This document shows, piece after piece, positions 3,670 to 41,187 of a DNA stretch of 64,000 bases; positions within the stretch are counted from its first letter, which is position 1; every line of letters begins with the position of its first letter. A program made the translations under genes and the position numbers. The DNA is from Chrysomallon squamiferum. Lineage: Eukaryota > Animalia > Mollusca. The stretch covers positions 5,766,001 through 5,830,000 of the forward strand of contig CM022671.1 in NCBI GenBank assembly GCA_012295275.1, read 5' to 3'. Under the pieces are notes generated by a model, which saw only the letters and a program-made list of their open reading frames with translations, had not been told where the DNA came from and did not search any database.

Positions 3670-3730
3670 TGTTGACTATTAAGCAGTTAGAACAGCGTTA
3701 AAGATAATTATTATTTGCAGATCATCGAAA

Positions 3731-5618
3731 ATGATTTCTACTTTGAGTAAAACTGATTGGGAACGTCAGACCCAATGTTCAAAAGTTGTGGTGGATGGTG
3801 TAGGAGATTTTTTTTCTGAATCAGAAACAATGCAACGAAAAAAATCAGAAAAAGAAAGACTGGATACGTTTTGGAACTGGCCATCATCGTCATACCAAAC
3901 ACCGAAGTCCCTCGCCAAAGCGGGATTTTATTATACCGGAATATCGGATCGAGTACAATGTGCATTTTGTCACGGGGTTTTAAAGAACTGGCTACCGTCA
4001 GACGAACCCATGTCAGAGCATAAACTACATTTTCCATCTTGTCCATTCGTGAAAGGCGAATACGTAGGCAATATTCCCATGGCAGAAGACATGCAAATAG
4101 AAGAAAACAGACTGGCCTCGTTTTCGGCATGGCCACGAGATCGACGCCAAACGCCGAACGAACTTGCTCGTGCTGGTTTTTATTATCTTGGCGACAGCTT
4201 CAAACCGGACAGGGTGAAGTGTGCATACTGCCAAGTCAGACTGTACGACTGGATGCCAGGAGACGATCCATGGATCGAACACGCCAGAGCCTTTCCTAGA
4301 TGTCCGTACACGAAATTATGTCTTGGCCAGGATTTTATTGACGATATTCTGAAGTCAGGGACGGAACCACACCAAAGGTAATTACTTTTTTGATTATTTA
4401 GTAACTGATTTGTGTTAAAGATTAACAGGAGATTTTTACTTTTATTAATAACTAAATAAGAGTGGATTAAATACTTGATGATTATTTTGACTTATTTTTT
4501 TCAGTCAAACCGAGTATTATAGAACAAACAGTCTCATTGTACTGCTATTTGTTGATAAAAATAGTATAAAAATTCACTTCTGATTTATTGAAGAGAAATA
4601 AATGAAAAATATGCACATAAAAAAATAAAGATCATAACATAGGTAAGCATAATTTTCTTAATATTAAATTTGACAACAAAACAACAATAAATAGATTAAT
4701 AATAACTAACCAAACCAAATAAACATTTTAATGAACCAAGTAACATTTAAAAGCAGTGCTCCTGTGTTATGTCTGTGTGGATGTGTATACATGCACATGT
4801 GCTTATTTGTATATTTTTAAAAATGCAATACCAAAATACCAACTGTTATTATGAAGATAATGAGTGTACAGCAATATAACAGAAATAGAATAAAATACTA
4901 AACCAAAAAATTAGAGTATAAAATAACATAACTAGAAATACAAAAATATCTGAACACAGAAAGTGGCACAAAGGTAAGAGTTAAAATGTGATATTAAAAA
5001 CTAACATTTCGTTATACTTATTATTCTAGTAATCGGGCAGTTTTCACACCTCAAAGTTCACAAAATTCAGCATCTCAGAACACCCCTAATAATGTAGAAG
5101 TTGGAAACCAAACAGTGAATTATGAAAACAGGAGATCAGAGAGTGGAGTGAGAAAAGCTGCGAACAGCAGCCAGGTTCAAGCGATGTTGGAGATGGGTTA
5201 CCCTCGAGATTTAGTCCAGAATGCCGTGGAATGGAAGATCAGAGAAACGGGAACTGGATTCGCGTCTGCTGCTGATCTGGCTGCTCACCTTTTAGAAATG
5301 GAAGCTGAGACAAGCACAGTGTCACCAAGCAGTAGCCAAGTCTCTGTAACAAACCAAACAGCACCACAATTGTATAATCCAAGCCAACAGTCCACTTCTA
5401 CAAGTGAACAGCAGTCTACTCCTGCAAGTGAACAACAGTCCAGTTCTTTAAGCACGTTGCAAGAAAGATATCTCTGTAAAGTGTGTATGGAAAATCAGCT
5501 TCAAATGACATTTTTGCCCTGTGGTCATCTTGTTTGTTGTGGTCAGTGTGCGCTGTCTTTGGAAGTGTGTCCAATCTGCCGAACTGGTATAACTGGAATG
5601 GTGAAAACGTATTACTGA
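3731..5618 (+). CDS. Inhibitor of apoptosis protein (BIR-BIR-UBA-RING), copy 1, ~411 aa
   Basis: Exons 3731-4377 and 5030-5618 (AG|GTAATT donor, CTAAC branch point, TTCTAG acceptor, phase 2 matches). Two CX2CX16HX6C BIR motifs, a UBA-like LEMGYPRDLVQNAVE segment and a C-terminal C3HC4 RING (CKVC...PCGHLVCCGQC...CPICR). Confidence 0.97.
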
Positions 5619-10585: not shown

Positions 10586-11608
10586 CCTGCCCACAGTGAA
10601 TCAAATCGTTTTTTTTTTTTTTGTAAATTTCCATTCAGCAAAAAATGATGGCAATTGGCAGGTTATAAGTAAACAAGTTTTATACAGGGGAAGTTCTTCT
10701 ATCATTTCCACCGTCAACATTAAGTCTGCCGACTTTGAAATAGAAATAATACGAAACAGAAGATTTCCGATCGACTGTGCCCAGGTCTTCCCTACTTTCT
10801 TTACATCTAAACATACATTGGCGTAACTCACAAAGTTTCCATGATGAGTAATCACTGAAATGAAGGGAGCGAACGATAACCCCATTGGATAATTTAACGA
10901 ATATATAGGCGTGGTAATCTGAGACGGATGACTGTATAAATAATGAAGACCGGTTTTGCTTCACAGATGTTAACGAGTTTCACAACCGATCAAAGCGAAG
11001 CAGGTTCCAGCGTGTCATCCAAAAGTATGTATAAATCTCTTCCCTCGTATATTTACAAAAAAGAATGAAAGACGGTGTTTATTGTTTATTAATTAAATGA
11101 AAAATCAGAAATACATTACTTTATATATTTTATTATAATAATTTACATTAAATGGAGTGTTTTCCGGTCACCAGCGGACGAGTATTCATAAGTATAATGT
11201 ATTATATTGCTATTACTATTACTATTACAGTTACTGTATAATGTATCAGTGATACTTAGTTTACTGATATAGCTTATGATTAATACATTTCAAAATGTCC
11301 GTGTTAATATTATAGTTAAGACTTTGTATAATAACATGTTTAATTTTTATCTTTATACAAATTTTTTTACAAAATTTATCTGTTTAGAATATTAATAATG
11401 CTTAATTTTTTTTTTTTACTTTGAACAACAACTTGTTTAGCGTTCGTGTACGTACGAGAGCATGCGCGAATATTCGGAAAATAGCCAATCAAACGAGTTG
11501 GTTACTGACCTTGACACAATTTTTAAAATAGCACGAGAGTATAAATATGTTGACTATTAAGCATTTACAACAGCGTTAAAGATAATTATTATTTGCAGAT
11601 AATCGAAA

Positions 11609-13491
11609 ATGATTTCTACTTTGAGAAAAGCTGATTGGGAACCTCAGACCCAATGTTCAAAAGTTGTGGTGGATGGTGTAGGAGATTTTTTTTCTGAATC
11701 AGAAACAATGCAACGAAAAAAATCAGAAAAAGAAAGACTGGATACATTCTGGAACTGGCCATCATCGTCATACCAAACACCGAAGTCCCTCGCCAAAGCG
11801 GGATTTTATTATACCGGAATATCGGATCGAGTACAATGTGCATTTTGTCACGGGGTTTTAAAGAACTGGCTACCGTCAGACGAACCCATGTCAGAGCATA
11901 AACTACATTTTCCATCTTGTCCATTCGTGAAAGGCGAATACGTAGGCAATATTCCCATGGCAGAAGACATGCAAATAGAAGAAAACAGACTGGCCTCGTT
12001 TTCGGCATGGCCACGAGATCGACGCCAAACGCCGAACGAACTTGCTCGTGCTGGTTTTTATTATCTTGGCGACAGCTTCAAACCGGACCGGGTGAAGTGT
12101 GCATACTGCCAAGTCAGACTGTACGACTGGATGCCAGGAGACGATCCATGGATCGAACACGCCAGAGCCTTTCCTAGATGTCCGTACACGAAATTATGTC
12201 TTGGCCAGGATTTTATTGACGATATTCTGAAGTCAGGGACGGAACCACACCAAAGGTAATTACTTTTTTGATTATTTAGTAACTGATTTGTGTTAAAGAT
12301 TAACAGGAGATTTTTACTTTTATTAATAACTAAATAAGAGTGGATTAAATACTTGATGATTATTTTGACTTTTTTTTTTCCAGTCAAACCGAGTATTATA
12401 GAACAAACAGTCTCATTGTATAAAAAATAGTATAAAAATAGTATAAAAATTCACTTCTGATTTATTGAAGAGAAATAAATGAAAAATATGCACATAAAAA
12501 AATAAAGATCAAAACATGGGCAAGCATAATTTTCTTAATATTAAATATGACAACAAAACAACAATAAATAGATTAATAATAACTAACAAAAACCAAATAA
12601 ACATTTTAATGAACCAAGTAACATTTAAAAGCAGTGCTCCTGTGTTATGTCTGTGTGGATGTGTATACGTGCATATTTGTATATTTAAAAAAATGCAATA
12701 CCAAAATACCAACTGTTATTATGAAGATCATGTGTATGATGATGAGTGTACAGCAATATAACAGAAATAGAATAAACTACCTAACCCAAAAATTAAGAGT
12801 GTAAAATAACATAACTAGAAATACAAAAATATCTGAACACACAAAGGTAAGAGTTAAAATGTGATATTAAAAACTAACATTTCGTTATACTTATTATTCT
12901 AGTAATCGGGCAGTTTTCACACCTCAAAGTTCACAAAATTCAGCATCTCAGAACACCCCTAATAATGTAGAAGTTGGAAACCAAACAGTGAATTATGAAA
13001 ACAGGAGATCAGAGAGTGGAGTGAGAAAAGCTGCGAACAGCAGCCAGGTTCAAGCGATGTTGGAGATGGGTTACCCTCGAGATTTAGTCCAGAATGCTGT
13101 GGAATGGAAGATCAGAGAAACAGGAACTGGATTCGCGTCTGCTGCTGATCTGGCTGCTCACCTTTTAGAAATGGAAGTTGAGACAAGCACAGTGTCACCG
13201 AGCAGTAACCAAGTCTCTGTAACAAACCAAACAGCACCACAATTGTATAATCCAAGCCAACAGTCCACTTCTACAAGTGAACAGCAGTCTACTCCTGCAC
13301 GTGAACAACAGTCTAGTTCTTTAAGCACGTTGCAAGAAAGATATCTCTGTAAAGTGTGTATGGAAAATCAGCTTCAAATGACATTTTTGCCCTGTGGTCA
13401 TCTTGTTTGTTGTGGTCAGTGTGCGCTGGCTATGGAAGTGTGTCCAATCTGCCGAACTGGTATTACTGGAATGGTGAAAACGTATTACTGA
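11609..13491 (+). CDS. Inhibitor of apoptosis protein (BIR-BIR-UBA-RING), copy 2, ~411 aa
   Basis: Exons 11609-12255 and 12903-13491. Same structure as copy 1 with ~8 amino-acid differences, none in the BIR domains. Confidence 0.97.
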
Positions 13492-24793: not shown

Positions 24794-24840
24794 CTAAATT
24801 TCGAGTTCTTTCTTCAAAAACTGGAAATAATAATAATAAT

Positions 24841-24873
<33 letters not shown>

Positions 24874-25312
24874 AAATACAAGAATATAATAATAATAACG
24901 AAATTAACAATAATAGTAACAACAATGATGATAATAAAAGAAAACCAATAATAACAACAGCATAATAATAATAACAAACTCAACAATAAAAACAATATAA
25001 TAATACTAAGAACAACAACAATAGCATTGACATTAACAATAACAACAATGTTAATAAAAATAAAAACAACAACAATAACAACAACGATAATAACAATAAC
25101 ATCTTTTACTAAAAACATTTAAAAAAAAAAAAAAAAATTAAATTAAAGGTATCTGTTTCAGTTATGATGTAAGTGTTTTCCCATGAAGAGTTTACAAATA
25201 CTATACTGGCCAGTCCATAACAGAATAACAACAACTGATACATTAACATACCGGTATGGAATATGAAATAAACTTGTGAGTGTAATCTTTTGACAGATCT
25301 GAAAATATAAAA

Positions 25313-25347
<35 letters not shown>

Positions 25348-25761
25348 ATAGATAGATAGATAGACAGACAAACAATGGCAGAAATCAAAGAGACTCTGAC
25401 GATCATGACGACAACAAACAAACAATGACGCAATTAATAAAATAGTTTTTCCAGTTACATTTATATTGTATTCAATAAATTCATTCAAAAACCAGCTTGT
25501 ATTATACTTACGATCTAAATACGTAAACAGTTTAATATAACCCAGTCTGTCCAGTAGGGCGTTCAGATTTCCGGTTTCTGCGGCCGCCAGAAGTTCAAAG
25601 GTTATGACCTTTTCATGTTCCGGTAGGGATGAGAAAAATGGCGCCTGCTCAATATCGTCAATGAGACTAATAAATGAAAACTGCGTTTCCTGTGAGGGCG
25701 GAATAGAGGCACCGTTTACGAAGACGAAAAGAAAACCCAAGCACAGAAACACTTTTATCAT
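24794..25761 (-). CDS. Gene A: small secreted protein, signal peptide plus one shared helical 'Y' domain, ~107 aa
   Basis: Exons 25761-25512, 25298-25252 (47 nt) and 24820-24794, all GT-AG and in frame: MIKVFLCLGFLFVFVNGASIPPSQETQFSFISLIDDIEQAPFFSSLPEHEKVITFELLAAAETGNLNALLDRLGYIKLFTYLD|HLSKDYTHKFISYSIP|FLKKELEI*. Confidence 0.88.
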
Positions 25762-25884
25762 GATGTTTTCTGAAATGTAAATATTAATATATCTTATGTC
25801 AGTTATTTATTTAATAATTTGCGCCATTTTTGTTTAGACGCAATTTGGTTTTATTTTATTTTTTATTTTATCAGTATAAATAGT

Positions 25885-25957
<73 letters not shown>

Positions 25958-26228
25958 CAACAACAACAACAACAATGTGAAATACATGCACGCACATAAA
26001 CATGACATTTTACAACCAACCCTAAATTGGTATAATGTATGGATGAAAATAAATAAATAAATAAATAAAATTTTATTAAAAGGGGTGAAAAAAAATAGAA
26101 ATGGAAAAGAAAAAGAATTTATTTATATTGTTTACGGGTATCTCCGTTCGGGCTTATATCAATTATACATGATATTTTTATTTTTTATTTTTTTATTTGT
26201 AATTCTTTTTTAATATTATTTATTTATT

Positions 26229-26291
<63 letters not shown>

Positions 26292-26885
26292 GTTAATTAA
26301 GCATCTAAAACGTATTATTCTCTATGTAAATATATACATTACGTTCTTGAACCCGTAAATTTTCTTCACAGTTGTTCCACGCGTTCTGCCTGATAAGTCC
26401 GCTTTTGGAAGTGGCACGTGACAAATTCACAGCTTTCCTGTCATAAGAGAAAACTATCAAACAGAAGAACTGTCGGTCTAGCAGAGTTTTCAGATCACCA
26501 TAGTTTGTCGTGTTTGCGACAAGCTCAAAAGCAACACCAAGATAATAATTGAAATACACGATTGATAGTGTTAGAATAAAGAAATGTTTTGTTTCTGCTG
26601 ACAGAAGGTCAGTGTCTTGAAATTATCAACAGCACTGAAAGTTCAAAACTAATGATCAGTACTTGTATGCGTTCGTACGTATGTATTTATGTGTGTGTGT
26701 GTGTATATATATGATTGAATGTAAGTGTATGTATGTATTTATGTATCTGTATGCATGTAATGTTCATGAATGTTCAAAATTAATGGCATCAGTATGTTTT
26801 TGTTTATATGTGTGTGGTTTAGTATTTAAATATTCTCTATGTATATACGTCTGAATAGACTCTATTTAACGCACTATGTCACGTG

Positions 26886-26960
26886 ATGCCGTGACGAGTC
26901 GAACGTATGACACCCAGTCGCCCGCACTCCGAAGGCGGACGATGTTACCATTTGGCCATC
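26886..26960 (-). mobile_element. tRNA-derived SINE head (degenerate)
   Basis: The minus strand has an A-box-like TGGCCAAATGG and a B-box-like GTTCGACTC at tRNA-like spacing, but no convincing cloverleaf. Confidence 0.5.
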
Positions 26961-27060
26961 AAGACAAAGAAAACAGTGTGAATAAAAACAAGTAAAAGAA
27001 AACGTTTGAGAACGCTGTTAAAATACTTGAAGAATCAGAGTTCTCTTTGTTTATTCTTAC

Positions 27061-27165
27061 CTTGCTAGAGTTGTATAGTATTCAGATCATTCCTTTCTTC
27101 TAAAGTCTTCTACTAATCAGAATTACGGTGCATGCACGCCATTTATAGGCCAGACGATAAGTACC
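27061..27165 (-). promoter_or_regulatory. Gene A TATA promoter and non-coding exon 1
   Basis: TATAAAT at 27147-27141, an adjacent GATA motif (GATAAG ~27157), an Inr-like TTAGT ~30 nt downstream and donor AAG|GTAAGA at 27061/27060. The acceptor lies 8 nt before ATG 25761. Confidence 0.6.
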
Positions 27166-27558
27166 GCACCAGTTTAACCAGCGACGCTTAATCTTAATTT
27201 TCATTATTTTTGACTTTCACAACATCATATTTCATTATGGATGACGTTACGACGTCGTAACTTCTCCGATACGTATGCGTCGGTGTATACAGGTGAAAAG
27301 GGTGTGATAAGATTTTAATTCAACGGTCTGTCGATGTTTGGATTGCAGACAGAGTAAGTTGGGTAGATAATAGTTTTAAAATAGATTTACGTCTTTTAGT
27401 GTTGACCAGAATGGAAGACCAGTCAACTCCACACCCATTTGCTTTAGGCGTTTACGGTTCATTTTCAAAAATATATATTATTATTAAACTTGTATTCTAA
27501 ACATAGAATAAAATGTTTAGAAAATGTTAACATTAGCAACAAAGTGTCAGATATAGAA

Positions 27559-27612
<54 letters not shown>

Positions 27613-27734
27613 AGAGAATTGGCCAGCACGACCTTTTGTAATAACTTTACTTTCACTAACATTAATGTACTTCATTACTAACTGCCTCCTTTATTTATTA
27701 TTTTTATAATATATGACTTTAAGATAATGTTTAT

Positions 27735-27832
<98 letters not shown>

Positions 27833-28063
27833 ATTAAGGTGACTAATTACACTCCATTATGTAAATTCAAGCAAACAAAACCCAGAAAGGTTACGTCGTA
27901 CATTTTCTAATCTAGATTGTCAAACTTCGCAAACACGCTTTAGTTAATTGCTGTTATTGTTGTGATTGAAAAGAAAAAGGTAAAAGGGTGCAGTTATGGT
28001 TGTAGTTTATTTATGATACAGGTACAATATTTTTTGTTTCACGAGTTTTAAAAATTAGTAAGT

Positions 28064-30851
28064 TTAGTCCAGTGGTGTGTTGATTCCTTCAGCTCTTAAA
28101 CTCTGCAAAGCAAAAAATAAATAAATAAATAATACAGAAACAACATCAACAAAAATAACTACAACCATAATAATAATAATATAATAATAATAATAATAAT
28201 AATAACAACAACAACAATATGATTAACAATAGCAAAAGAAACAACGATAATGATAATATTACAATAAATAAATAATAATAATGACGACAACAAGACAAAA
28301 CCAGAAAAACAACAATAATAAATACATTTAAAATGTTAATTGAAGTTATTATTTAACAGAAAAAGATTTGGTAAAATCATAATTTACTGACAGGCAAAGT
28401 TTATTTTTGAATAATTTTTTTTTTAAATAAGATTAAATAAATAAGTTAATGGCAATTTTATTTCTTTTCCCTTCTTATTCTTTTATTTTTTATTTGTTTG
28501 TTTATTTGAATGTTTGTTTATTTATTTATTTATTTGTTTGTTCATTCATTTTAAAGAAAATATTAGTTCTTGTTTATTTTTATCTTTTTTTACCGACAAA
28601 ACTAGAAATTTAGAAAAGGGAGATAATTCTACTTACAAGCGACAGAAACTGAAGAAAACGATGAAGGTATTTTATTGGCATATCTGTAATAATAATGATA
28701 ATAATAACAATAATAATAATAATAATAAAAAATAATAATAATAATAATAGTCAGAAGAAGAAGAAGAAGAACAACAACAACAACAACAACAACAACAATT
28801 GAAATCTAAAAAATAAAATATCTCAGCATATTAATACGTGTACACAAACTTGCGTATATGTTTATTTTTTCGTACGCTTATAGATACTCGGACCCTGTAC
28901 ATGCTACTACTCTATGACTAACTCACCATCTAACAAAATAAAGAGACGCTCCATTGTTTCAGGCTCTAGAAATTTGTGCAGTTCGCACTTCTCCCCCGCC
29001 GCCAGGATCTCGTACATAAATATCTCCTCACCCTCGGGCAGCTCTTTGAAGTCGAGAGTGTCTATGAAGTGATAAATCCCAATCGTCTTGTCCAGGTCTG
29101 TGCGACACGAGATTGGTTGTGTGGCTTGTTTTCTCGTCCTCAGCTGAAATTAGTGAGAAATATATATATATTTTTTTTTTTATTTCTGCCGTGATGAAGT
29201 AGTTGTAGTAATAGTAATGGTCGTGGTGGTTGGTGATGGTGGTGGTGGTGGTGGTGGTGGTAGTAGTAGTAGAAGTGATGGTAATAGTAGTAGAAACAGT
29301 ATTGGTGATGGTGATGATAGTTGTGGTGGTAACAGTAGTAATAGTTGTTGTAGTGGTATTGATGATGATTATAGTGATGGTGGTGGTGGTGTAGAAGTAG
29401 TAGTAGTAGTAGTGATGGTAATAACTGTAGAAGTAGTAATGGTGGTGTTAGTAATAGTAGTAGTAGAAGTAATAATGGTGATGGTAGTATTAGTAGAGGT
29501 TGTTTTTGGTGTACTAGTAGTTATAGTTGTTATTGTACTACTAACAGTAAAAATAGTAGTGGTAGTAGCAATAGAGGTAGTAGTAGCAGTAATGGAAGTT
29601 GCTGGAGTATTTGTACCAGTAGTGGTAGTACAAAGAGTAACGGTAGTCACCGTGGAAGTAGTAGTAGTGTTGTAGGTAGTAGGAACAGCAGTAGTAAAAT
29701 ATCAGAACACGTTTTACTGCAGTATTGTGATGATTATGATGATGATATTATTGATAATGAAAATAAAATAGGTAAGTTATGTTATTAGTAAGTCTCAACA
29801 GTGATAGTGATGTAAATAAGACTACTAGTAGAAATAACAGAGGCAACTGTAGTACCGATAGAAGAAGAAGTAGTAGTAGTAGTAGTAGGAAAACATTTAT
29901 CTGTCTGTCTCTCTGTGTGTATGTATATGTATATATATATATGTATGTAATAGCTATAAATATATGTACGCATTCAACATACATGTGTTTATGTAGCAAC
30001 AAAATTTTACCTTCTTGATATCTTTGTAAATACTTTTCGCTATTTCTTTAATTTTGGGTGGGATTTCTGAAAATAATATATTAATGTTATAACTAATTAG
30101 ACTGAAATGAGAATAACAGAAAAAGCATAAATAAAAAGCCTGGTAAAATTCACAATGAAATGTCTTAAAAATGTATTTCAATACAGATTAACACAAATCA
30201 AACACATTCACACCACATACATCATACACACACATACACAGATCATTCACACATCCATACATCCTCACCCAGTCATTATTAAAATTAATAATATGAATAT
30301 TCCATACCATAATAACGCGTACGATACTTATTTTATCTCAGTGGTGCATAACTATGACGTAAATATAGCTCGTCTCCTAGTAATGATATGACGTCATGAT
30401 TGATTACCTTTTTTCAAAGTTTGCACAAAAGTCTTGATCAGTTTGTTCACTGACATTTTGTGCGGTCTTTGCAACAACGACTTTAAATCGTGGCTGGCTT
30501 CCTGTAAAATATCTTCGCTTTCTTCTTCTAGTTTTCGCTTTATATCATCGCTTTTGTGTCTGGAAAATAAATAAATAAATAAATAAAGAACGAAAGATAG
30601 AAAGAAATAAGGAAAGCAAGAAAGAAAGAAAGAAAGCAAGAAAGAAAGAAAAAAATGAATGTGATATTTAGGGGGAAAAAAAAACGAAAGAAAGAAAATA
30701 CTGACGTTAAATCTTCCAGCGACGTTATTGCCTTGGTAACCGCTGTCTTGACAACCTTACTGACCAGTCTGTCGATGACATCCTCTACGACATCCGCCTG
30801 GCAGACGGTCACGACGACCACACCTAACAACAGCAGCTTCGTGGATATCAT
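28064..30851 (-). CDS. Gene B: secreted two-module helical protein ('X' module + 'Y' domain), ~218 aa
   Basis: Exons 30851-30706, 30559-30408, 30066-30011 (56 nt), 29143-28927, 28683-28637 (47 nt) and 28102-28064; phases 2,1,0,1,0 are all consistent. Signal MISTKLLLLGVVVVTVCQA; C-terminus ...FKELPEGEEIFMYEILAAGEKCELHKFLEPETMERLFILLD|DMPIKYLHRFLQFLSL|SLRAEGINTPLD*. AATAAA lies ~55 nt downstream. Confidence 0.88.
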
Positions 30852-32006
30852 CGTTCAGTCTGTTAACAACAAAAAATGTCTCGGCAGTTTCACGAAAAAG
30901 CACGAAGTTTTACGATTGTTGTATTAACAGATATAACTTCTAGGTTGTCGTACTTCTTATCTTTGCCACTGTTGCCATAGAAACAAATTTGCAAATCGGT
31001 TTGGGAAAGTGTGTTATTATTATGTTTTAATTTTACAAATATAACTAATATTTTGTTTATTATTATTTTTTTTAAAGTTATACTGTAAAATATTTAAAGT
31101 CCATTTAAATAATAATGAATGAATGAATAAATTAATTAAAAATAAAATTCATTCATTTATATTATTATATTTTTTATGTTTCTGTTTACTTTTTTAAATT
31201 ACTGATTATTTAGAATTCAATAAATATATTTCCTGACAGTTATTTTTTTTTATATTATTATTATTGTTGTTGTTGTTGTTGTTGTTCTTATTAATAATAA
31301 TAATAATTTATTAATTTATTAATTAATAAAACTAGTGTTTCTATTTTTAAATAAACATCTACAAATATGACAGTATAGTTATTCACCTTTGTACCTACCT
31401 GGATTAAAAGACAGGTAAGTTAGATCTCACATTTTAATAATTTCTAGTAGTCACTAAATTTATTTAAATCATTATTTGTTTTCTGACAGTTACAATTGCT
31501 GTTGAACACGTGGATAGTTAACAAAATGAATCTACAAACAATTGTTCATCTCAAAGATTAATGTTTTTAGTACAAAAAAAAATCTTAGAATTAAAAGTCC
31601 AATCATGTCTTATAACTGGTGAAAATTTCTAGTTTGATTTACAACTTTTTCATCTCAAATAGATTTTTATAGATAGAAGAAAGATAGATGAAAAATCTTA
31701 GAACAGACAGAAAATAGATTTGTTTAACTGGAAAATAGATAGATAGATAGTCAGATAGATAGATAAATAGACAGATAAATAGATAATAAATAAATGGATG
31801 GACAGTTGAATGGGTGGATAGATAGAGAGAAAGAAAGAACGAAAGATAGATACAGACATTTTCATTATCATCATTACATTCTTCATGTTCGTTGGTTTAT
31901 CATTATCATCGTAACAACAACAACAACAACCAACAACAAACAAAATAATAGACAACAACAACAATAACAAAATAAAAATAATAATATTAATTACTTATTA
32001 CTACTG

Positions 32007-32046
<40 letters not shown>

Positions 32047-32548
32047 AACTGTTATTATTATCATTATCATTATCATAATTACTTTTAATATTATTATTAT
32101 TATTATTAAAATTATTCTGTTAAGCATTTTATCGTGTGTAAGTCACAAATGGCCACAGATTAGCCTACAAACACGATTAAAACTGAACAGACGACATTTT
32201 ATCAGTTTTCTTTCATCTTTAATCTGGAATCGGTGAAGAGCGGTTGATAAATGTGACCTACTTTCTCGCCACCTGTCAAAAGTTCCATGCTGATCACGTG
32301 ACCTCCACGCTTTGTAGATTATGAATCAGTAAATGGGTCGAAGGTGTGAGAAAATATTTAACAGCTGTCCTAATATGCGAAGTATTATATTTTAAGTCTG
32401 ATTTATACTGATATTTTTTTTATTATTATTGTTAGTGTTTCCGATATATTTTACTACAAATTTATTCATCGATCCATCCTTCATCAGTTAATTTGTTCAA
32501 TAATATTCGTTCGTTTCATTTTTATTTAATTTTCAATCCTTCTTTCCA

Positions 32549-32587
<39 letters not shown>

Positions 32588-32593
32588 GGTTTT

Positions 32594-32636
<43 letters not shown>

Positions 32637-33906
32637 CTCTCATCATTCTTTTATTCAGTTGTTGATTTTAATATTTTAATAATTTCTAGTAGTCACTAAA
32701 TAATTATTTAAATCATTATTTGTTTGCTTGCCTGATCGTTAGTTGTTGCTGTTATTGATTTTTATATACAGATTTGTTCACAAAATAAATGTACAAGCAT
32801 ATGCGAACTTGGGCACTGAAAATAATTCAATGATGCAAAGATGTATATGTCTTTTACTTATTTGTTTGGTTTTGTGGTTGTTTCCAGGAAGCTGATTATG
32901 TAAAACTAATCTAGTTTACACAGTTTAATGTGCTAACATCTACGAAATATCTATACACATAATTAAATCTCTATTACATTTGAAATTTACATAATGTACT
33001 GAATGGGAAAGTTTAAAATAGACCCCCCCAAAAAAAAAAAAAAAAAAATAAAATTAATATTATTAATTATATTTAAAAAAAAAATGAAAAACGAAGTCAA
33101 ATAAAAAAACAAACAAATAAATAAATAAATAATATTAATAATGAAAATAATAATGATAATAATAATAATAATAATAGTAATAAAAAATAACAATAAAAAT
33201 AAATAGATAGAAATTTATAAAGTTATAGAGTTATATATTTAACATTTATTTTATTTTATTTTGTTTTGTTTTGTTTTAATTTTAATTTTAATTAATGCAG
33301 CATTCAGACTATATAAAATTATATTATAATATTATACTGTAATATTTTCATGACAATCTTATATTACAACATTACATTTTAATATTTTTTATAATAATCT
33401 TATATTACAGTATTTTTACATTTTAATATTTTTATAACAATCTTACATTACAATATTACAGATTAACATTTATTATAATAATCATATATTATAATATTAA
33501 ATTTTATTAAATTTTTATAACCATGTCCAAACGGTTCATTTCTATACAATTGTTAAATTACCTTAAACGTCTTTTTAACAAATTACTTATTTTTTGGCTC
33601 CACGTAGAAAATAAAAATCATCGAATTAACCAAAATTATTTGATATTTCACAACTGATACGAAATCGATCATAATTATAAAGCTACCTTATTTCTATTCC
33701 AGCTGTCCTTGGTAATTTATGGATCAGTGATTATAGAAATAAAATAAATCGGGTCATTTGTGTTACGAATGAAAACTAAAACTAAAAAGAAAGAATTATT
33801 AATTTTAATTTATTTATATATTTTTCAGTTACAAAGATCCAAAGATTTATTCCTGGCCTCGTCTTGAAATGAATGTTTTTAAAACGTATCCAAAGTATGT
33901 CTCTTT

Positions 33907-33988
33907 TCAGTGCACTATTTCTCTCTCTAGTTTCAAACCCTGCAAAATCAAACGTTGTAATGTTTTATTAACATACCTGTGATTGTTA

Positions 33989-34079
<91 letters not shown>

Positions 34080-36271
34080 GCAGAATAAGTGTTCAGATTA
34101 AAAATAATTCAGAAAAATGGTGCATAATTAATAATAATGTCTTCTGCATTGCTATATTTCCAGTTATTCACATTTCATTTAAAAATTTTCATTTTTTTTT
34201 TTTACTTTCTACACCCGAACTGAATTAATTTTAATTCAGTACATCCCAAGAGTAAATTGGTCCTTTCAAAAAATGATTAAAACCGTTCTTACCTGTAACA
34301 GAAAAGCAAGAAACTGCTCTATGTATTTTGTAGGTAAATCTGCAATTAAACACGTTACAAAGTGAAATTTTAAAAATATATAGACACAAACTGAAATATA
34401 CTAATAAGCTTACTCTGTGCTGTATATAGTTACAATAGAGGTTTTTCTCTAAAAATATGTTTGCCTGTTGTCTTTTTTATTTTTATTTTTTATTTATTTT
34501 ATTTTATATAGGGCCTCACAATCTAATATTTTTTCTTAAACTGATATACAATTCTCTGTTGACTTTTATAAAAGTTCCCCACAGCTTTGGGTCTCGTGTT
34601 ATCTAAATACGACATCACCATCATAATCAACATCGTCATCACAAAAAAACTATATAGATTTAATAACTTTATCAAATCCTGGACACTTACTGAATATAAA
34701 CTTGATAAACCAGACACTTACTGTATATAAACTTTATAAACCAGACACTTACTGTATATAAACTTGACAAACCAGACATTCACTGTATACAAACTTCACA
34801 AACCAGACACTCACTGTATATAAACTTCACAAACCAGACACTTACTGTATATAAACTTGATAAACCGGACACGTACTGTATATAAACTTGATAAACCAGA
34901 CACTCACTGCATATAAAATTGACAAGCCAGACGCTCACCGTATATAACTTTGATAAACCAGACACATGCTGTGTACAAACTTGATAAACCAGACACTTAC
35001 TGTATATAAACTTGATAAATTTTTCAAAGCCCAGGTGCTCGAGGACTTCGTTAATCTTGTGACTCTGGACTCCGGCCGCCAACTCGTAGACGGTCATTCT
35101 GTCAGAGACTGGAAGCTTCTGGAAATATCTCTCGTGTTCAATCGCGCTGAACAGAGCCAGAATCTCTTCCAAAGTCACCTTCGTGCCGCTCTTAGGAGTT
35201 GAGACAGGTTTGGAAGAAGTCCTGGTTTCAGCCGTTGATGCGGTAGAGACGTCCGTAAGCGACGGTGACGTTGCTGATGCGGTAGAGACGTTTGTAAGCG
35301 ACTGTGACGTTGCTGATGCGGTGGAGACGTTTGTGAGCGACTGTGACGTTGTTGATGCTGTAGAGACGTTTGTAAGCGACGGTGACGTTACTGATGCGGT
35401 AGAGACGTCTGTAAGTGACTGTGACGTTGTTGATGCGGTAGGAAAGTTTGTAAGCGACTGTGACGTTGTTGATGCGGTAGAGACGTTTGTCATTGGTGGT
35501 GACGTTGCCGATGACGAAGGTGTGTAGGTCACGTATTGTTTAGTTGATGTTTCAAAAGCAGTGGATGATGATTCGCCCGAGGGAAATGACGTTGTTGCTT
35601 TCGTAGGTATCGTTGTCATCGATTCGCCAGAATCCGTTGATGACGTCCCTTCATCTGTCATTCCATACTGTTTTGTCACCCCGCTGGAGTATTTTGATAT
35701 CATGTCCATGGTTGTAAGATCAGAATCTTTTGTTTCCATGGAAACTGTACTTGTACTGTCTGGAAACGTAGAGCTTTGGTAGCTGGGTTGTTCGGATGGT
35801 TTTGAATATTCATAAGTTTTGCTAGTTTCCTGCGGCATTGGTTTGGTAAACAATGTTGGAGGTGCTTCAGTTTTCAATGCAAAAGCCCCTGATGGAGTTG
35901 GCACTAAATGTTTTGGAACGTCAAGAGATTCTGTAGAAATAATCTGTAATAAGAAAACATAAGAAAATATTTTCTTCGTACGAAAAGACAGAAAATTATC
36001 AGAGGCAGACAGAGAGACAGGCAGAAAGTCACATAGAGAGATAGAAAAACAGACAGACAGAGAGACAGACAGACAGATAAATAGACAGACAGATAAGAAG
36101 AATTATGGATACTCAGAAAATCAGAAAATGACTAAAGGAAAAATGGAAAGAAAAACCTACAGAAAGGATAAGAAAGAAAGAAAGAAGGACAAAGGGATAG
36201 ATGGAAAGAAGAGATTGTACCTGTGATATTACAGACAGTGTTAAGATCACTTTCACAACAGATGACGTCAT
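33907..36271 (-). CDS. Gene C: secreted mucin-like Ser/Thr-rich protein with a C-terminal 'Y' domain, ~357 aa
   Basis: Exons 36271-36221 (MTSSVVKVILTLSVISQ, signal), 35943-35001, 34339-34293 (47 nt) and 33939-33907. C-terminus ...FQKLPVSDRMTVYELAAGVQSHKINEVLEHLGFEKFIKFIY|NLPTKYIEQFLAFLLQ|GLKLEREIVH*. A likely non-coding exon has its donor at ~37005. Confidence 0.88.
34660..35020 (-). repeat. 31-bp minisatellite made of the gene C exon end plus splice donor
   Basis: Unit (minus strand) TTTATCAAGTTTATATACA|GTAAGTGTCTGG, ~11 copies. The first copy overlaps the exon ending at 35001. Confidence 0.92.
35235..35490 (-). repeat. 39-bp coding tandem repeat (13-aa TNVSTASTTSQSL, ~6.5 copies)
   Basis: Visible in both DNA and translation of gene C; several units carry an N-V-S sequon. 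Confidence 0.93.
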
Positions 36272-40031: not shown

Positions 40032-41187
40032 TAGATCATATTAAATATACTAAGATAGATATGTGTTTTTCTTTAAAGTTAGGGAAGAAAGAAAACTTAC
40101 ATATCTGACTTAGCTTTTGTTTCTATATCTTTAAGATTAGCCTCCAGGGAGTTCACTAAGTCAAACACAAATCTCTTTACTGGTAACATCGGCTTCGAAT
40201 CGCTTCGTTTGTGAACAACATCGCTGATGACGTTAGTCAGATCAGTCCCAGTAGCGAGATCTAAAACATCGCCAATCCCCGCTTCAATAGCATTCAGCGG
40301 CTTCTCGATCGTTTCCAAAACCTCGCTCCAAATGTCTCGTCTTCCATTGCTGGTGTCCGAACTCAGGAGCTCGGATGCTGCTTCTACGATCGCCAGGGTC
40401 ATTTGGAACCCTATTTGTTCTAATGGGCTTATGATTTTGTTCCACGTTTCGTTGAAAACATTTCTCTTTTCTCTCCCTTTAGCATCATTTACAGCTTCGT
40501 GTAAAATTTCTTTGCAGCTTCAGTCAGAAGTTGTACAGTTTGCTTTGCTGCAGCTTTTAAGGGCTCCGTGAAACGCTGCCAGACGTCGAATACATTTCGT
40601 TTGCCGATAGCCGATTCGTGATGCTGGAGGTCGCTTAGTAAAACCCCGACTAACGCCTGGACAGATTTCTCGCCTGCTATTTGCAGAGGAACCTTCAGGC
40701 TCTTGAAAAAGTCCTCAAAAATATTTCGTTTATCGAGTTTCGAAGGTGTCGTCTGCTTTATACCTTGTCTTGCTTCAGACTTTTGCGTTTGTTTCATTTC
40801 TTCCATCTCAGCGATCATTCTCATGATATTCGTCAAATCGTGGACTTTCTGTATCCAGATGTTGTCTACATCCCTTCTTCGTTGTCCCACGGCAGTTTCG
40901 GCTGCTTCGTGGATCGTCATGGCGGCCACATCACCCAGAGTTAGTATCGTCTGCTTCCCAATCTGTTGCAGCGGGAGTTTAATTCTACCCCACAGTCGGT
41001 GAAGAATGCCTCGTTTCTCCGTATTCTTGAAAAATTCATGTGACTCTATATTTGGTGCGAATGCGCGAGAAATTTCAGATTGGGAAAAATAATCTTCTTG
41101 ACTTTTAGTTTTCAAAACATTAGCAGACGATTTTATCAGGAAGCACGACACAACGGCAGCCAAGAAAAATAGAGCACCAGACTGCAT
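38782..41187 (-). CDS. Gene D: secreted polyprotein precursor with dibasic-site-delimited amphipathic peptide repeats and a C-terminal 'X' module; ~465 aa if a 1-nt deletion at ~40512 is corrected
   Basis: Exons 41187-40101, 39648-39407, 39219-39164 (56 nt) and 38793-38782 (FTK*); phases 2,1,0. Signal MQSGALFFLAAVVSCFLIKSSA; KR/RR/RRR sites every ~40-47 aa. ORFs 40489-41187 and 40097-40402 join if one A is added at GCA AA[A] GAA ATT. Confidence 0.85.

What the first reader, a model, noticed from the sequence alone, without database searches (positions are those of the whole stretch)
24794..35200. Uncharacterised ~65-aa C-terminal 'Y' domain shared by genes A, B and C with an identical 47-nt exon
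Seen: a gapless 41-residue alignment of FSSLPEHEKVITFELLAAAETGNLNALLDRLGYIKLFTYLD / FKELPEGEEIFMYEILAAGEKCELHKFLEPETMERLFILLD / FQKLPVSDRMTVYELAAGVQSHKINEVLEHLGFEKFIKFIY. In all three genes it is followed by a phase-1 intron, a 47-nt exon (HLSKDYTHKFISYSIP / DMPIKYLHRFLQFLSL / NLPTKYIEQFLAFLLQ), a phase-0 intron and an xL[KR]xE tail. Consensus: FxxLPx7[FY]ExxA...Y..x.F. Inference: an old paralogous all-helical domain used alone, on a mucin stalk, or fused to another module, as ligand-binding or oligomerisation domains often are.
Basis: seen in the sequence. Interest (0 to 1): 0.8.

Follow-up and report, generated by a model that had tools for sequence, protein, structure and literature searches.

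The report
Unnamed secreted helical domain of molluscs
Three neighbouring snail genes share an unnamed 80-residue domain that also occurs in other snails and in bivalves; it is predicted to fold as a small helix bundle and likely serves as a secreted building block of gland or gut secretions, but its job is untested.

Summary
Three minus-strand genes (A 107 aa, B 218 aa, C 357 aa) end in a homologous domain split by introns of identical position and phase around a 47-nt exon. That exon is equal in length only (23-30 of 47 nt identical). The domain is about 80 aa, not 65. Gigantopelta aegis RefSeq proteins match the spliced A and B models. A profile search of 1.84 billion proteins gave 49 hits; named relatives are gastropods (Gigantopelta, Littorina, Babylonia, Batillaria, Aplysia, Elysia) and bivalves (Mytilus, scallops, Saccostrea, Tegillarca). 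A, B and C each fall in their own subfamily. Other members are precursors with 2-4 tandem domains, with KR/RR in 36 of 40 complete linkers. No Pfam family fits the window exons. AlphaFold gives a confident six-helix domain that matches only generic four-helix bundles (best Z 7.2). No catalytic or metal-ligand residue is invariant. Best guess (0.4): a secreted, non-enzymatic pairing module, released by convertases or carried on a mucin stalk. Lipid carrier and signalling ligand remain rivals. A real, apparently undescribed mollusc family; function untested.

The parts
25512..25761 (-). Gene A exon 1 (coding): hydrophobic signal-like N-terminus and domain helices 1-5; ends in phase 1
   Evidence: 80% identical to G. 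aegis XP_041347359
25252..25298 (-). Gene A 47-nt exon (start of last helix), phase 1 to phase 0
   Evidence: continuous in P0001
24794..24820 (-). Gene A last coding exon (FLKKELEI, stop)
   Evidence: G. aegis tail YLKKELDV favours this acceptor over an alternative at 25152
30706..30851 (-). Gene B exon 1: signal-like N-terminus and start of an N-terminal module of no known family
30408..30559 (-). Gene B exon 2 (N-terminal module)
   Evidence: module 55% identical to G. aegis XP_041347361
30011..30066 (-). Gene B exon 3 (end of N-terminal module)
28927..29143 (-). Gene B exon 4: basic linker, first conserved Cys, domain helices 1-5 with second conserved Cys; ends in phase 1
28637..28683 (-). 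Gene B 47-nt exon
28064..28102 (-). Gene B last coding exon (SLRAEGINTPLD, stop)
36221..36271 (-). Gene C exon 1: signal-like N-terminus
35001..35943 (-). Gene C exon 2: Ser/Thr-rich stalk (45% S+T, with a 39-bp x 6.6 repeat at 35234-35490) and domain helices 1-5; ends in phase 1
34293..34339 (-). Gene C 47-nt exon
33907..33939 (-). Gene C last coding exon (GLKLEREIVH, stop)
34682..35019 (.). 31-bp minisatellite (10.9 copies) that repeats the donor site of gene C's phase-1 intron

Best explanation
Genes A, B and C encode three paralogues of an unnamed mollusc domain of about 80 residues that is predicted to fold as a four-helix bundle, is likely secreted, and likely works as a non-enzymatic pairing module in gland or gut secretions. 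Shown: the gene structures, the homology, the spread over gastropods and bivalves, separate A, B, C and polyprotein subfamilies, and dibasic sites between tandem copies. Predicted: signal peptides and the six-helix fold. Inferred: precursors pass the secretory route, convertases cut at KR/RR and release single domains, and different subtypes dock on one another. The bare A domain would then partner or cap domains that carry an O-glycosylated stalk (C; B in other snails), organising the secreted matrix. Confidence is about 0.97 for the family and about 0.4 for this mechanism.
For: Family: 49 hits at E<=0.001 in 1.84 billion proteins and 21 hits with a polyprotein profile. A refined HMM found 123 domains in 79 of 80 proteins (circular for the sequences it was built from). 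Subfamilies in a quick tree of 96 of the 123 domains: B 98, C 96, A 86, bivalve first domain 98, gastropod polyprotein first domain 98, later domains 100 (SH-aLRT). Secretion: a hydrophobic 10-residue window of KD 2.3-3.6 at the N-terminus in 19 of 22 window and named proteins; the other three are P0003 (1.7), P0074 and P0004 (0.6 each), whose models look 5'-incomplete or mis-started. No later 19-residue window exceeds KD 1.8. Processing: KR/RR in 36 of 44 linkers and 36 of 40 complete ones, against 1.5 of 44 for in-domain windows and 5.9 of 44 for shuffled linkers. Non-enzymatic: the conserved columns are hydrophobic or helix caps (L29 89%, P30 49%, A43 85%, G57 84%); the best polar columns are E87 82%, E45 64% and E39 62%, and no His or Cys is family-wide. 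Fold: pLDDT about 74-89 over residues 31-113 with 4 sequences and 83-94 over most of both domains of a scallop protein. Pairing hint: pTM 0.62 for that two-domain model, against 0.37-0.44 in my rough estimate for independently placed domains. Constraint: 12 of 13 listed exonic differences in DNA run X1 are synonymous. Transcription of the family: 9 of 10 unnamed records of 0.9-1.1 kb carry the domain across the intron site. Gut hint: P0028, filed under the parasite Digyalum oweni, is in one 90% cluster with a Littorina protein, and Digyalum parasitises Littorina gut epithelium (PMC6733595, passages).
Against: No partner, tissue or ligand was measured for A, B or C. The pTM argument is a rough estimate on covalently linked domains of a scallop protein, and I saw no contact map. 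Genes A and C have no KR/RR before the domain, and B has only a basic stretch there. The four complete linkers without KR/RR are the three Mytilus proteins and one close unnamed relative. Linker counts are not independent, because many rows are close relatives. The gut hint is one record of the polyprotein subtype, not of A, B or C, and assumes host carry-over. Only 40 of 160 differences were displayed, so the synonymous count covers part of the data. Support for the A clade is modest (86) and the tree is the quick version on 85 columns.
Confidence: 0.4

Rival explanations
1. Carrier of lipids or other hydrophobic ligands: two domains would close a cavity, as in cockroach Bla g 1, or each released unit would bind a ligand, as in nematode polyprotein allergens.
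For: Six helices per unit and twelve per tandem pair, the count given for Bla g 1, a midgut protein (PMC8286345, passages). About 29 of 75 core columns are at least 73% hydrophobic. Polyprotein layout. Gut hint.
Against: The models superpose on compact four-helix bundles over 70-80 residues (Z 6-7, rmsd 2.4-3.2), which argues for a filled core. I could not inspect the model for a cavity.
Confidence: 0.2
2. Secreted signalling ligand (hormone, cytokine-like factor or pheromone) released from precursors by convertases and read by a receptor.
For: Signal peptide plus dibasic sites is prohormone anatomy (established knowledge). Four-helix bundles are a common ligand fold (recalled). Subtype-specific surface residues are conserved between distant gastropods.
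Against: Long Ser/Thr stalks on soluble proteins and His- or Asp-rich linkers fit a matrix better. Family motifs were not found in the held parts of two mollusc neuropeptide supplements (PMC4408573; PMC6425005, files cut).
Confidence: 0.15
3. Shell or periostracum matrix protein made by the mantle.
For: A galaxin-like gene lies next door (PF24748, E 3e-11), and a galaxin-like protein is listed in the G. aegis shell proteome (PMC11871041, supplement part 18). Acidic and His-rich linkers occur in the polyproteins.
Against: Members are kept in Elysia and Aplysia, which have a lost or reduced adult shell (recalled). Accessions and motifs were absent from the searchable supplements of two shell proteomes, but these mostly use other gene IDs, so this is weak.
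Confidence: 0.1
4. Defence or symbiont-control protein of mucosal surfaces, for example one that binds or neutralises amphipathic peptides.
For: Several of the nearest folds are bacteriocin-immunity four-helix bundles (7xno Z 6.7, 7xtg Z 6.4). The upstream neighbour is a KR-punctuated precursor of amphipathic-looking helices.
Against: Those Z scores are at the level of any small bundle (tool note; identity 4-10%). The domain is not cationic, and its subfamilies are well conserved (43% between gene B and Elysia).
Confidence: 0.1

Closest known systems
Bla g 1 / insect allergen repeat (PF06757)
   Same: Tandem all-helical repeats with twelve helices per pair; Bla g 1 is a midgut protein (PMC8286345, passages).
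   Different: No sequence link in the Pfam or PDB profile searches. Bla g 1 is a hollow sphere; the models here match compact bundles. This family has single-domain, stalked and KR-separated forms.
Nematode polyprotein allergens (ABA-1 type; recalled, no call)
   Same: Secreted precursor of tandem helical units cut at basic sites.
   Different: Units there are larger, have conserved Cys and bind lipid (recalled). Here units are about 80 aa and only the B subtype has a Cys pair.
Secretoglobins (uteroglobin, Fel d 1)
   Same: Small secreted helical proteins; they have an internal hydrophobic cavity (PMC8286345, passage) and pair up (recalled).
   Different: No sequence match, and no polyprotein or stalked forms are known to me.
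Pediocin-type bacteriocin immunity proteins and SPy2152 (PDB 7xno_B, 7xtg_B, 2fu2_A)
   Same: Nearest predicted fold: Z 5.4-7.2, rmsd 2.5-3.2 over 70-77 residues.
   Different: Bacterial and cytoplasmic, 4-15% identity, and scores within the range of unrelated bundles.
CAMPs of Cornu aspersum mucus (PMC10475054, passages)
   Same: Mollusc secreted proteins with a Ser/Thr-rich N-terminus and a C-terminal folded domain.
   Different: CAMP C-termini are fibrinogen-like or lectin domains, and the shared part is N-terminal. Here the shared part is the C-terminal helical domain.

Membership tests
Any Pfam-A family | Score above the curated cut-off over the domain | tested here: not met
   Window exons and P0001: none. 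47 hits: only the bacterial-type repeat protein P0013 passes cut-offs. One four-domain member, P0062, passes PF04512 Baculo_PEP_N on its summed score (32.5 against 23.9) with no single stretch significant (1 of 10 proteins). MgtE_N is weak in 6 of 14 members, best E 4e-4, below cut-off.
Insect allergen repeat / Bla g 1 (PF06757) | Profile match | tested here: not met
   Not among the families matched by 28 members at E<=1 or 14 members at E<=10; HMMER filters drop weak matches.
Insect allergen repeat / Bla g 1 (PF06757) | Twelve-helix hollow capsule formed by two repeats | tested here: inconclusive
   Twelve helices are predicted; the fold searches neither confirm nor exclude it; coordinates could not be inspected.
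Insect allergen repeat / Bla g 1 (PF06757) | Bound fatty acids or phospholipids | not testable with these tools
   Needs protein.
Nematode polyprotein allergens | Tandem helical units separated by basic cleavage sites | tested here: met
   KR/RR in 36 of 40 complete linkers of the multi-domain members; not applicable to single-domain A, B and C.
Nematode polyprotein allergens | Sequence homology to the NPA unit | tested here: not met
   No such Pfam or PDB sequence match.
Nuclear receptor ligand-binding domain | About 200-aa helical sandwich with the helix 3-4 signature | tested here: not met
   Only the FxxLP stretch resembles it: RXR E 1.2 with the 4-sequence profile, absent with the 28-sequence profile; PF00104 E 0.039 over 31 residues of one member. 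The domain is 80 aa behind a signal-like N-terminus.
Armadillo repeat | Tandem 42-residue three-helix repeats | tested here: not met
   Designed armadillo proteins reach E 9e-5 only by summing four repeats of at most 6.4 bits each over about 33 columns; the repeat unit here is about 80-100 aa.
Bacteriocin immunity four-helix bundle (PedB type) | Four-helix bundle fold | tested here: inconclusive
   Z 4.6-6.7, tied with unrelated and de novo bundles.
HGAP (abalone growth-associated peptide) | 96 aa, nine conserved Cys, little helix | tested here: not met
   PMC11108583 passages; mature A and C have no Cys and B has two.
CAMPs | Shared N-terminus plus C-terminal lectin or fibrinogen domain | tested here: not met
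   PMC10475054 passages; no such Pfam domain in any member scanned.

The most novel reading that the evidence does not exclude
A mollusc-wide class of secreted pairing domains with no known relative. Fixed subtypes, delivered either from one KR-cleaved polyprotein or from clustered single-domain genes such as A, B and C, assemble by a subtype code into hetero-oligomers that cross-link mucin-like stalks: a cysteine-free way to build mucus or gland secretions.
Probability: 0.2. Interest if true: 0.75.

Novelty: new variant of a known kind. Interest (0 to 1): 0.5.

Why it matters
The family is conserved between gastropods and bivalves, whose split is Cambrian (recalled), yet it has no Pfam model and every named member seen is labelled uncharacterised, hypothetical or threonine-rich. 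A defined 80-residue, nearly Cys-free, easily expressed unit with fixed subtypes makes its role directly testable in Aplysia, Littorina or Mytilus. If it assembles secretions, it adds a new component to mollusc mucus and bio-inspired materials; if it carries lipids or signals, it is a missing piece of mollusc physiology.

Tried and rejected
No genome is held for this window, so copies outside the window were not counted. The word-indexed search for longer proteins with the 4-row profile found nothing; the exhaustive HMMER search overturned this blank. ESM Atlas: no usable feature hit, and structure rows at TM 0.39-0.51 on a low-confidence model. Foldseek against PDB: no match at E<=0.001 for either model. 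VIA: no Z>=8 among 48,161 chains or 999 chains. Bla g 1, nematode polyprotein units and secretoglobins are not in the listed rows, which does not exclude them. Homodimer prediction of domain A: no verdict (score 0.00, alignment not used, fold uncertain). Expression: no RNA holder listed; three RNA contig sets laid only on simple repeats. P0013, 1 of the 49 hits, is a bacterial-type repeat protein whose best stretch scores 11.7 bits with the refined HMM, and was dropped. An alignment with the 47-nt exons as extra rows misaligned and was not used. Gene B's N-terminal module against the neighbouring polyprotein: 36 and 239 of 1000 shuffles reached the scores, not significant; the third piece was read in a wrong frame and is void. 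HGAP and CAMPs were rejected. Literature: accession searches gave 0 papers; motif search gave 2 unrelated papers; topic searches named no such family in their listings. Supplement searches were blank or unrelated; some files were cut or unreadable. Four look-ups of earlier scan findings returned nothing.
Full report
Observation. The window is AT-rich (30% GC), microsatellite-rich eukaryotic DNA. Spliced models give A 107 aa, B 218 aa and C 357 aa, all with GT-AG introns, a phase-1 intron, a 47-nt exon and a phase-0 intron at the same place in the domain. Pairwise scores of 92-114 were reached by 0 of 3000 shuffles each. The 47-nt exons share length, not sequence: 23-30 of 47 nt. The domain is about 80 aa. 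All three genes also have an acceptor-like AG 8-9 nt before the ATG, which suggests a shared 5'-UTR intron (inferred).

The genes are real. G. aegis RefSeq proteins XP_041347359 and XP_041347361 match A and B across the junctions. The window is therefore from a related gastropod. In DNA run X1, 12 of the 13 exonic differences displayed are synonymous. One search displayed only 40 of 160 differences, and it also showed two in-frame indels in gene C's stalk region.

Family. A profile of four rows (P0001 and the three domain exons) found 49 proteins at E<=0.001 among 1.84 billion. I looked up names for 22 of them. A polyprotein profile returned 21 proteins, 16 of them new. Named members are from Gigantopelta, Littorina, Babylonia, Batillaria, Aplysia, Elysia, Mytilus, Mizuhopecten, Pecten, Ylistrum, Saccostrea and Tegillarca, and are called uncharacterised, hypothetical or threonine-rich. 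One UniRef label says DUF4476, which the Pfam scans of that protein did not reproduce. No member named from a cephalopod, chiton or non-mollusc animal appeared, but many hits are unnamed. One record filed under the protist Digyalum clusters with a Littorina protein and is best read as host carry-over. The single-domain and polyprotein alignments match each other at 99.1% probability, E 5e-19. A refined HMM found 123 domains in 79 of 80 proteins; P0013 was dropped.

Subfamilies and architecture. The quick tree used 96 of the 123 domains; short domains and 14 near-duplicate or fragmentary proteins were left out. It places B with Elysia (98), C with Aplysia and Littorina (96), and A with unnamed single-domain proteins (86). 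Bivalve and gastropod polyprotein domains form further clades by position. So the A/B/C split likely predates the separation of these gastropod lineages (inferred). All 13 B-type proteins have a Cys at column 47 and a second Cys just upstream, a likely disulfide. Most B and C types carry Ser/Thr/Pro stalks; only gene B and its Gigantopelta orthologue have the other N-terminal module. Multi-domain members have KR/RR in 36 of 44 linkers (36 of 40 complete ones), against 1.5 and 5.9 in two controls. All 13 domains whose match stops before column 75 continue at the intron position with R, G or S, the residues that an N-GT codon gives. They include members of the bivalve clades, so the phase-1 intron is probably ancestral (inferred). 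Ten of the other 107 domains also show R, G or S there.

Structure. AlphaFold2 predicts six helices over residues 35-111 of P0001 (pTM 0.56) and the same pattern twice in the scallop protein (pTM 0.62). Foldseek found nothing significant. VIA gives best Z 7.2 (2fu2, rmsd 3.2, 75 aligned) and 7.1 (9jhq, rmsd 2.4, 70 aligned), followed by de novo and bacteriocin-immunity four-helix bundles. The tool notes that such values may mean only a common arrangement. Conservation is hydrophobic and helix-capping, with no invariant catalytic or metal-binding residue. No Pfam family fits the window exons. One four-domain relative passes the PF04512 cut-off on a summed score, and MgtE_N recurs weakly; I read both as repeat-summing effects.

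Mechanism. The anatomy is that of a secreted, non-enzymatic unit that is delivered bare, on a stalk, or cut from a polyprotein. Fixed subtypes within one precursor, and three fixed subtypes side by side here, suggest that subtypes act together. The pTM of the two-domain model exceeds my rough estimate for independent domains (0.37-0.44), a weak hint of docking. I put a pairing or assembly role in gland or gut secretions at 0.4, a lipid carrier at 0.2, a signalling ligand at 0.15, shell matrix at 0.1 and defence at 0.1. Every functional step is inferred.

What is known. No description was found in ten library searches. The library lacks most subscription papers, so this is not proof of novelty. 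Papers seen: PMC11871041 (abstract, first third of Results, supplement searches, one supplement part; main table cut, one file unreadable, one too large); PMC10475054 (passages, supplement search); PMC3434067 and PMC11108583 (passages); PMC6733595 (passages); PMC8286345 (passages); PMC4408573, PMC9589101 and PMC6641155 (listing and supplement search); PMC6425005 (supplement search only, files cut). Members could be listed in proteomes under gene IDs that I could not map. Statements on nematode polyprotein allergens, convertase specificity, divergence times and slug shells are recalled.

Verdict. A real, old and apparently undescribed mollusc secreted domain family, in layout a new variant of secreted helical repeat and polyprotein systems. 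Function is open. Interest 0.5.

Noticed in passing
window 41187-39407 (-): Signal-bearing precursor of KR/RR-flanked, amphipathic-looking helical peptides directly upstream of gene C; no Pfam match for the three pieces scanned. The reading frame breaks near 40490-40520, either an assembly error or a real lesion. Its start context (acceptor, TGAACG, ATG) resembles gene B's.
   Followed up: partly
window 20250-18833 (-): Galaxin-like secreted gene next to gene A (PF24748, E 3e-11).
   Followed up: partly
window 3683-5618 and 11603-13491 (+): Two near-identical IAP genes about 7.9 kb apart; the second scored BIR-BIR, UBA and RING. A recent duplication or an uncollapsed haplotype.
   Followed up: partly
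window 26415, 26878, 32295, 37061; 32245, 37038: CACGTGAC occurs 6 times in the window (0.57 expected), 4 of them 0.65-1.5 kb upstream of A, B and C. A TGATAA-GTGACCT composite lies upstream of B and C only (2 found, 0.02 expected). Both motifs were chosen after seeing them, so this is only a lead for shared regulation.
   Followed up: partly
window 34682-35019: A 31-bp minisatellite begins inside the last codons of gene C exon 2 and repeats the splice donor several times in the intron, offering cryptic donors.
   Followed up: no
window 55277-53954 (-) and about 53400-50130 (-): An RF-1-domain gene (PF00472, E 2e-12) and, by eye, a Nudix-hydrolase-like gene; ordinary housekeeping neighbours.
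   Followed up: no
P0044 (G. aegis LOC121385579): A further, His-rich family member on another G. aegis contig with a long branch in the tree, so the family has at least two loci in that genome.
   Followed up: no
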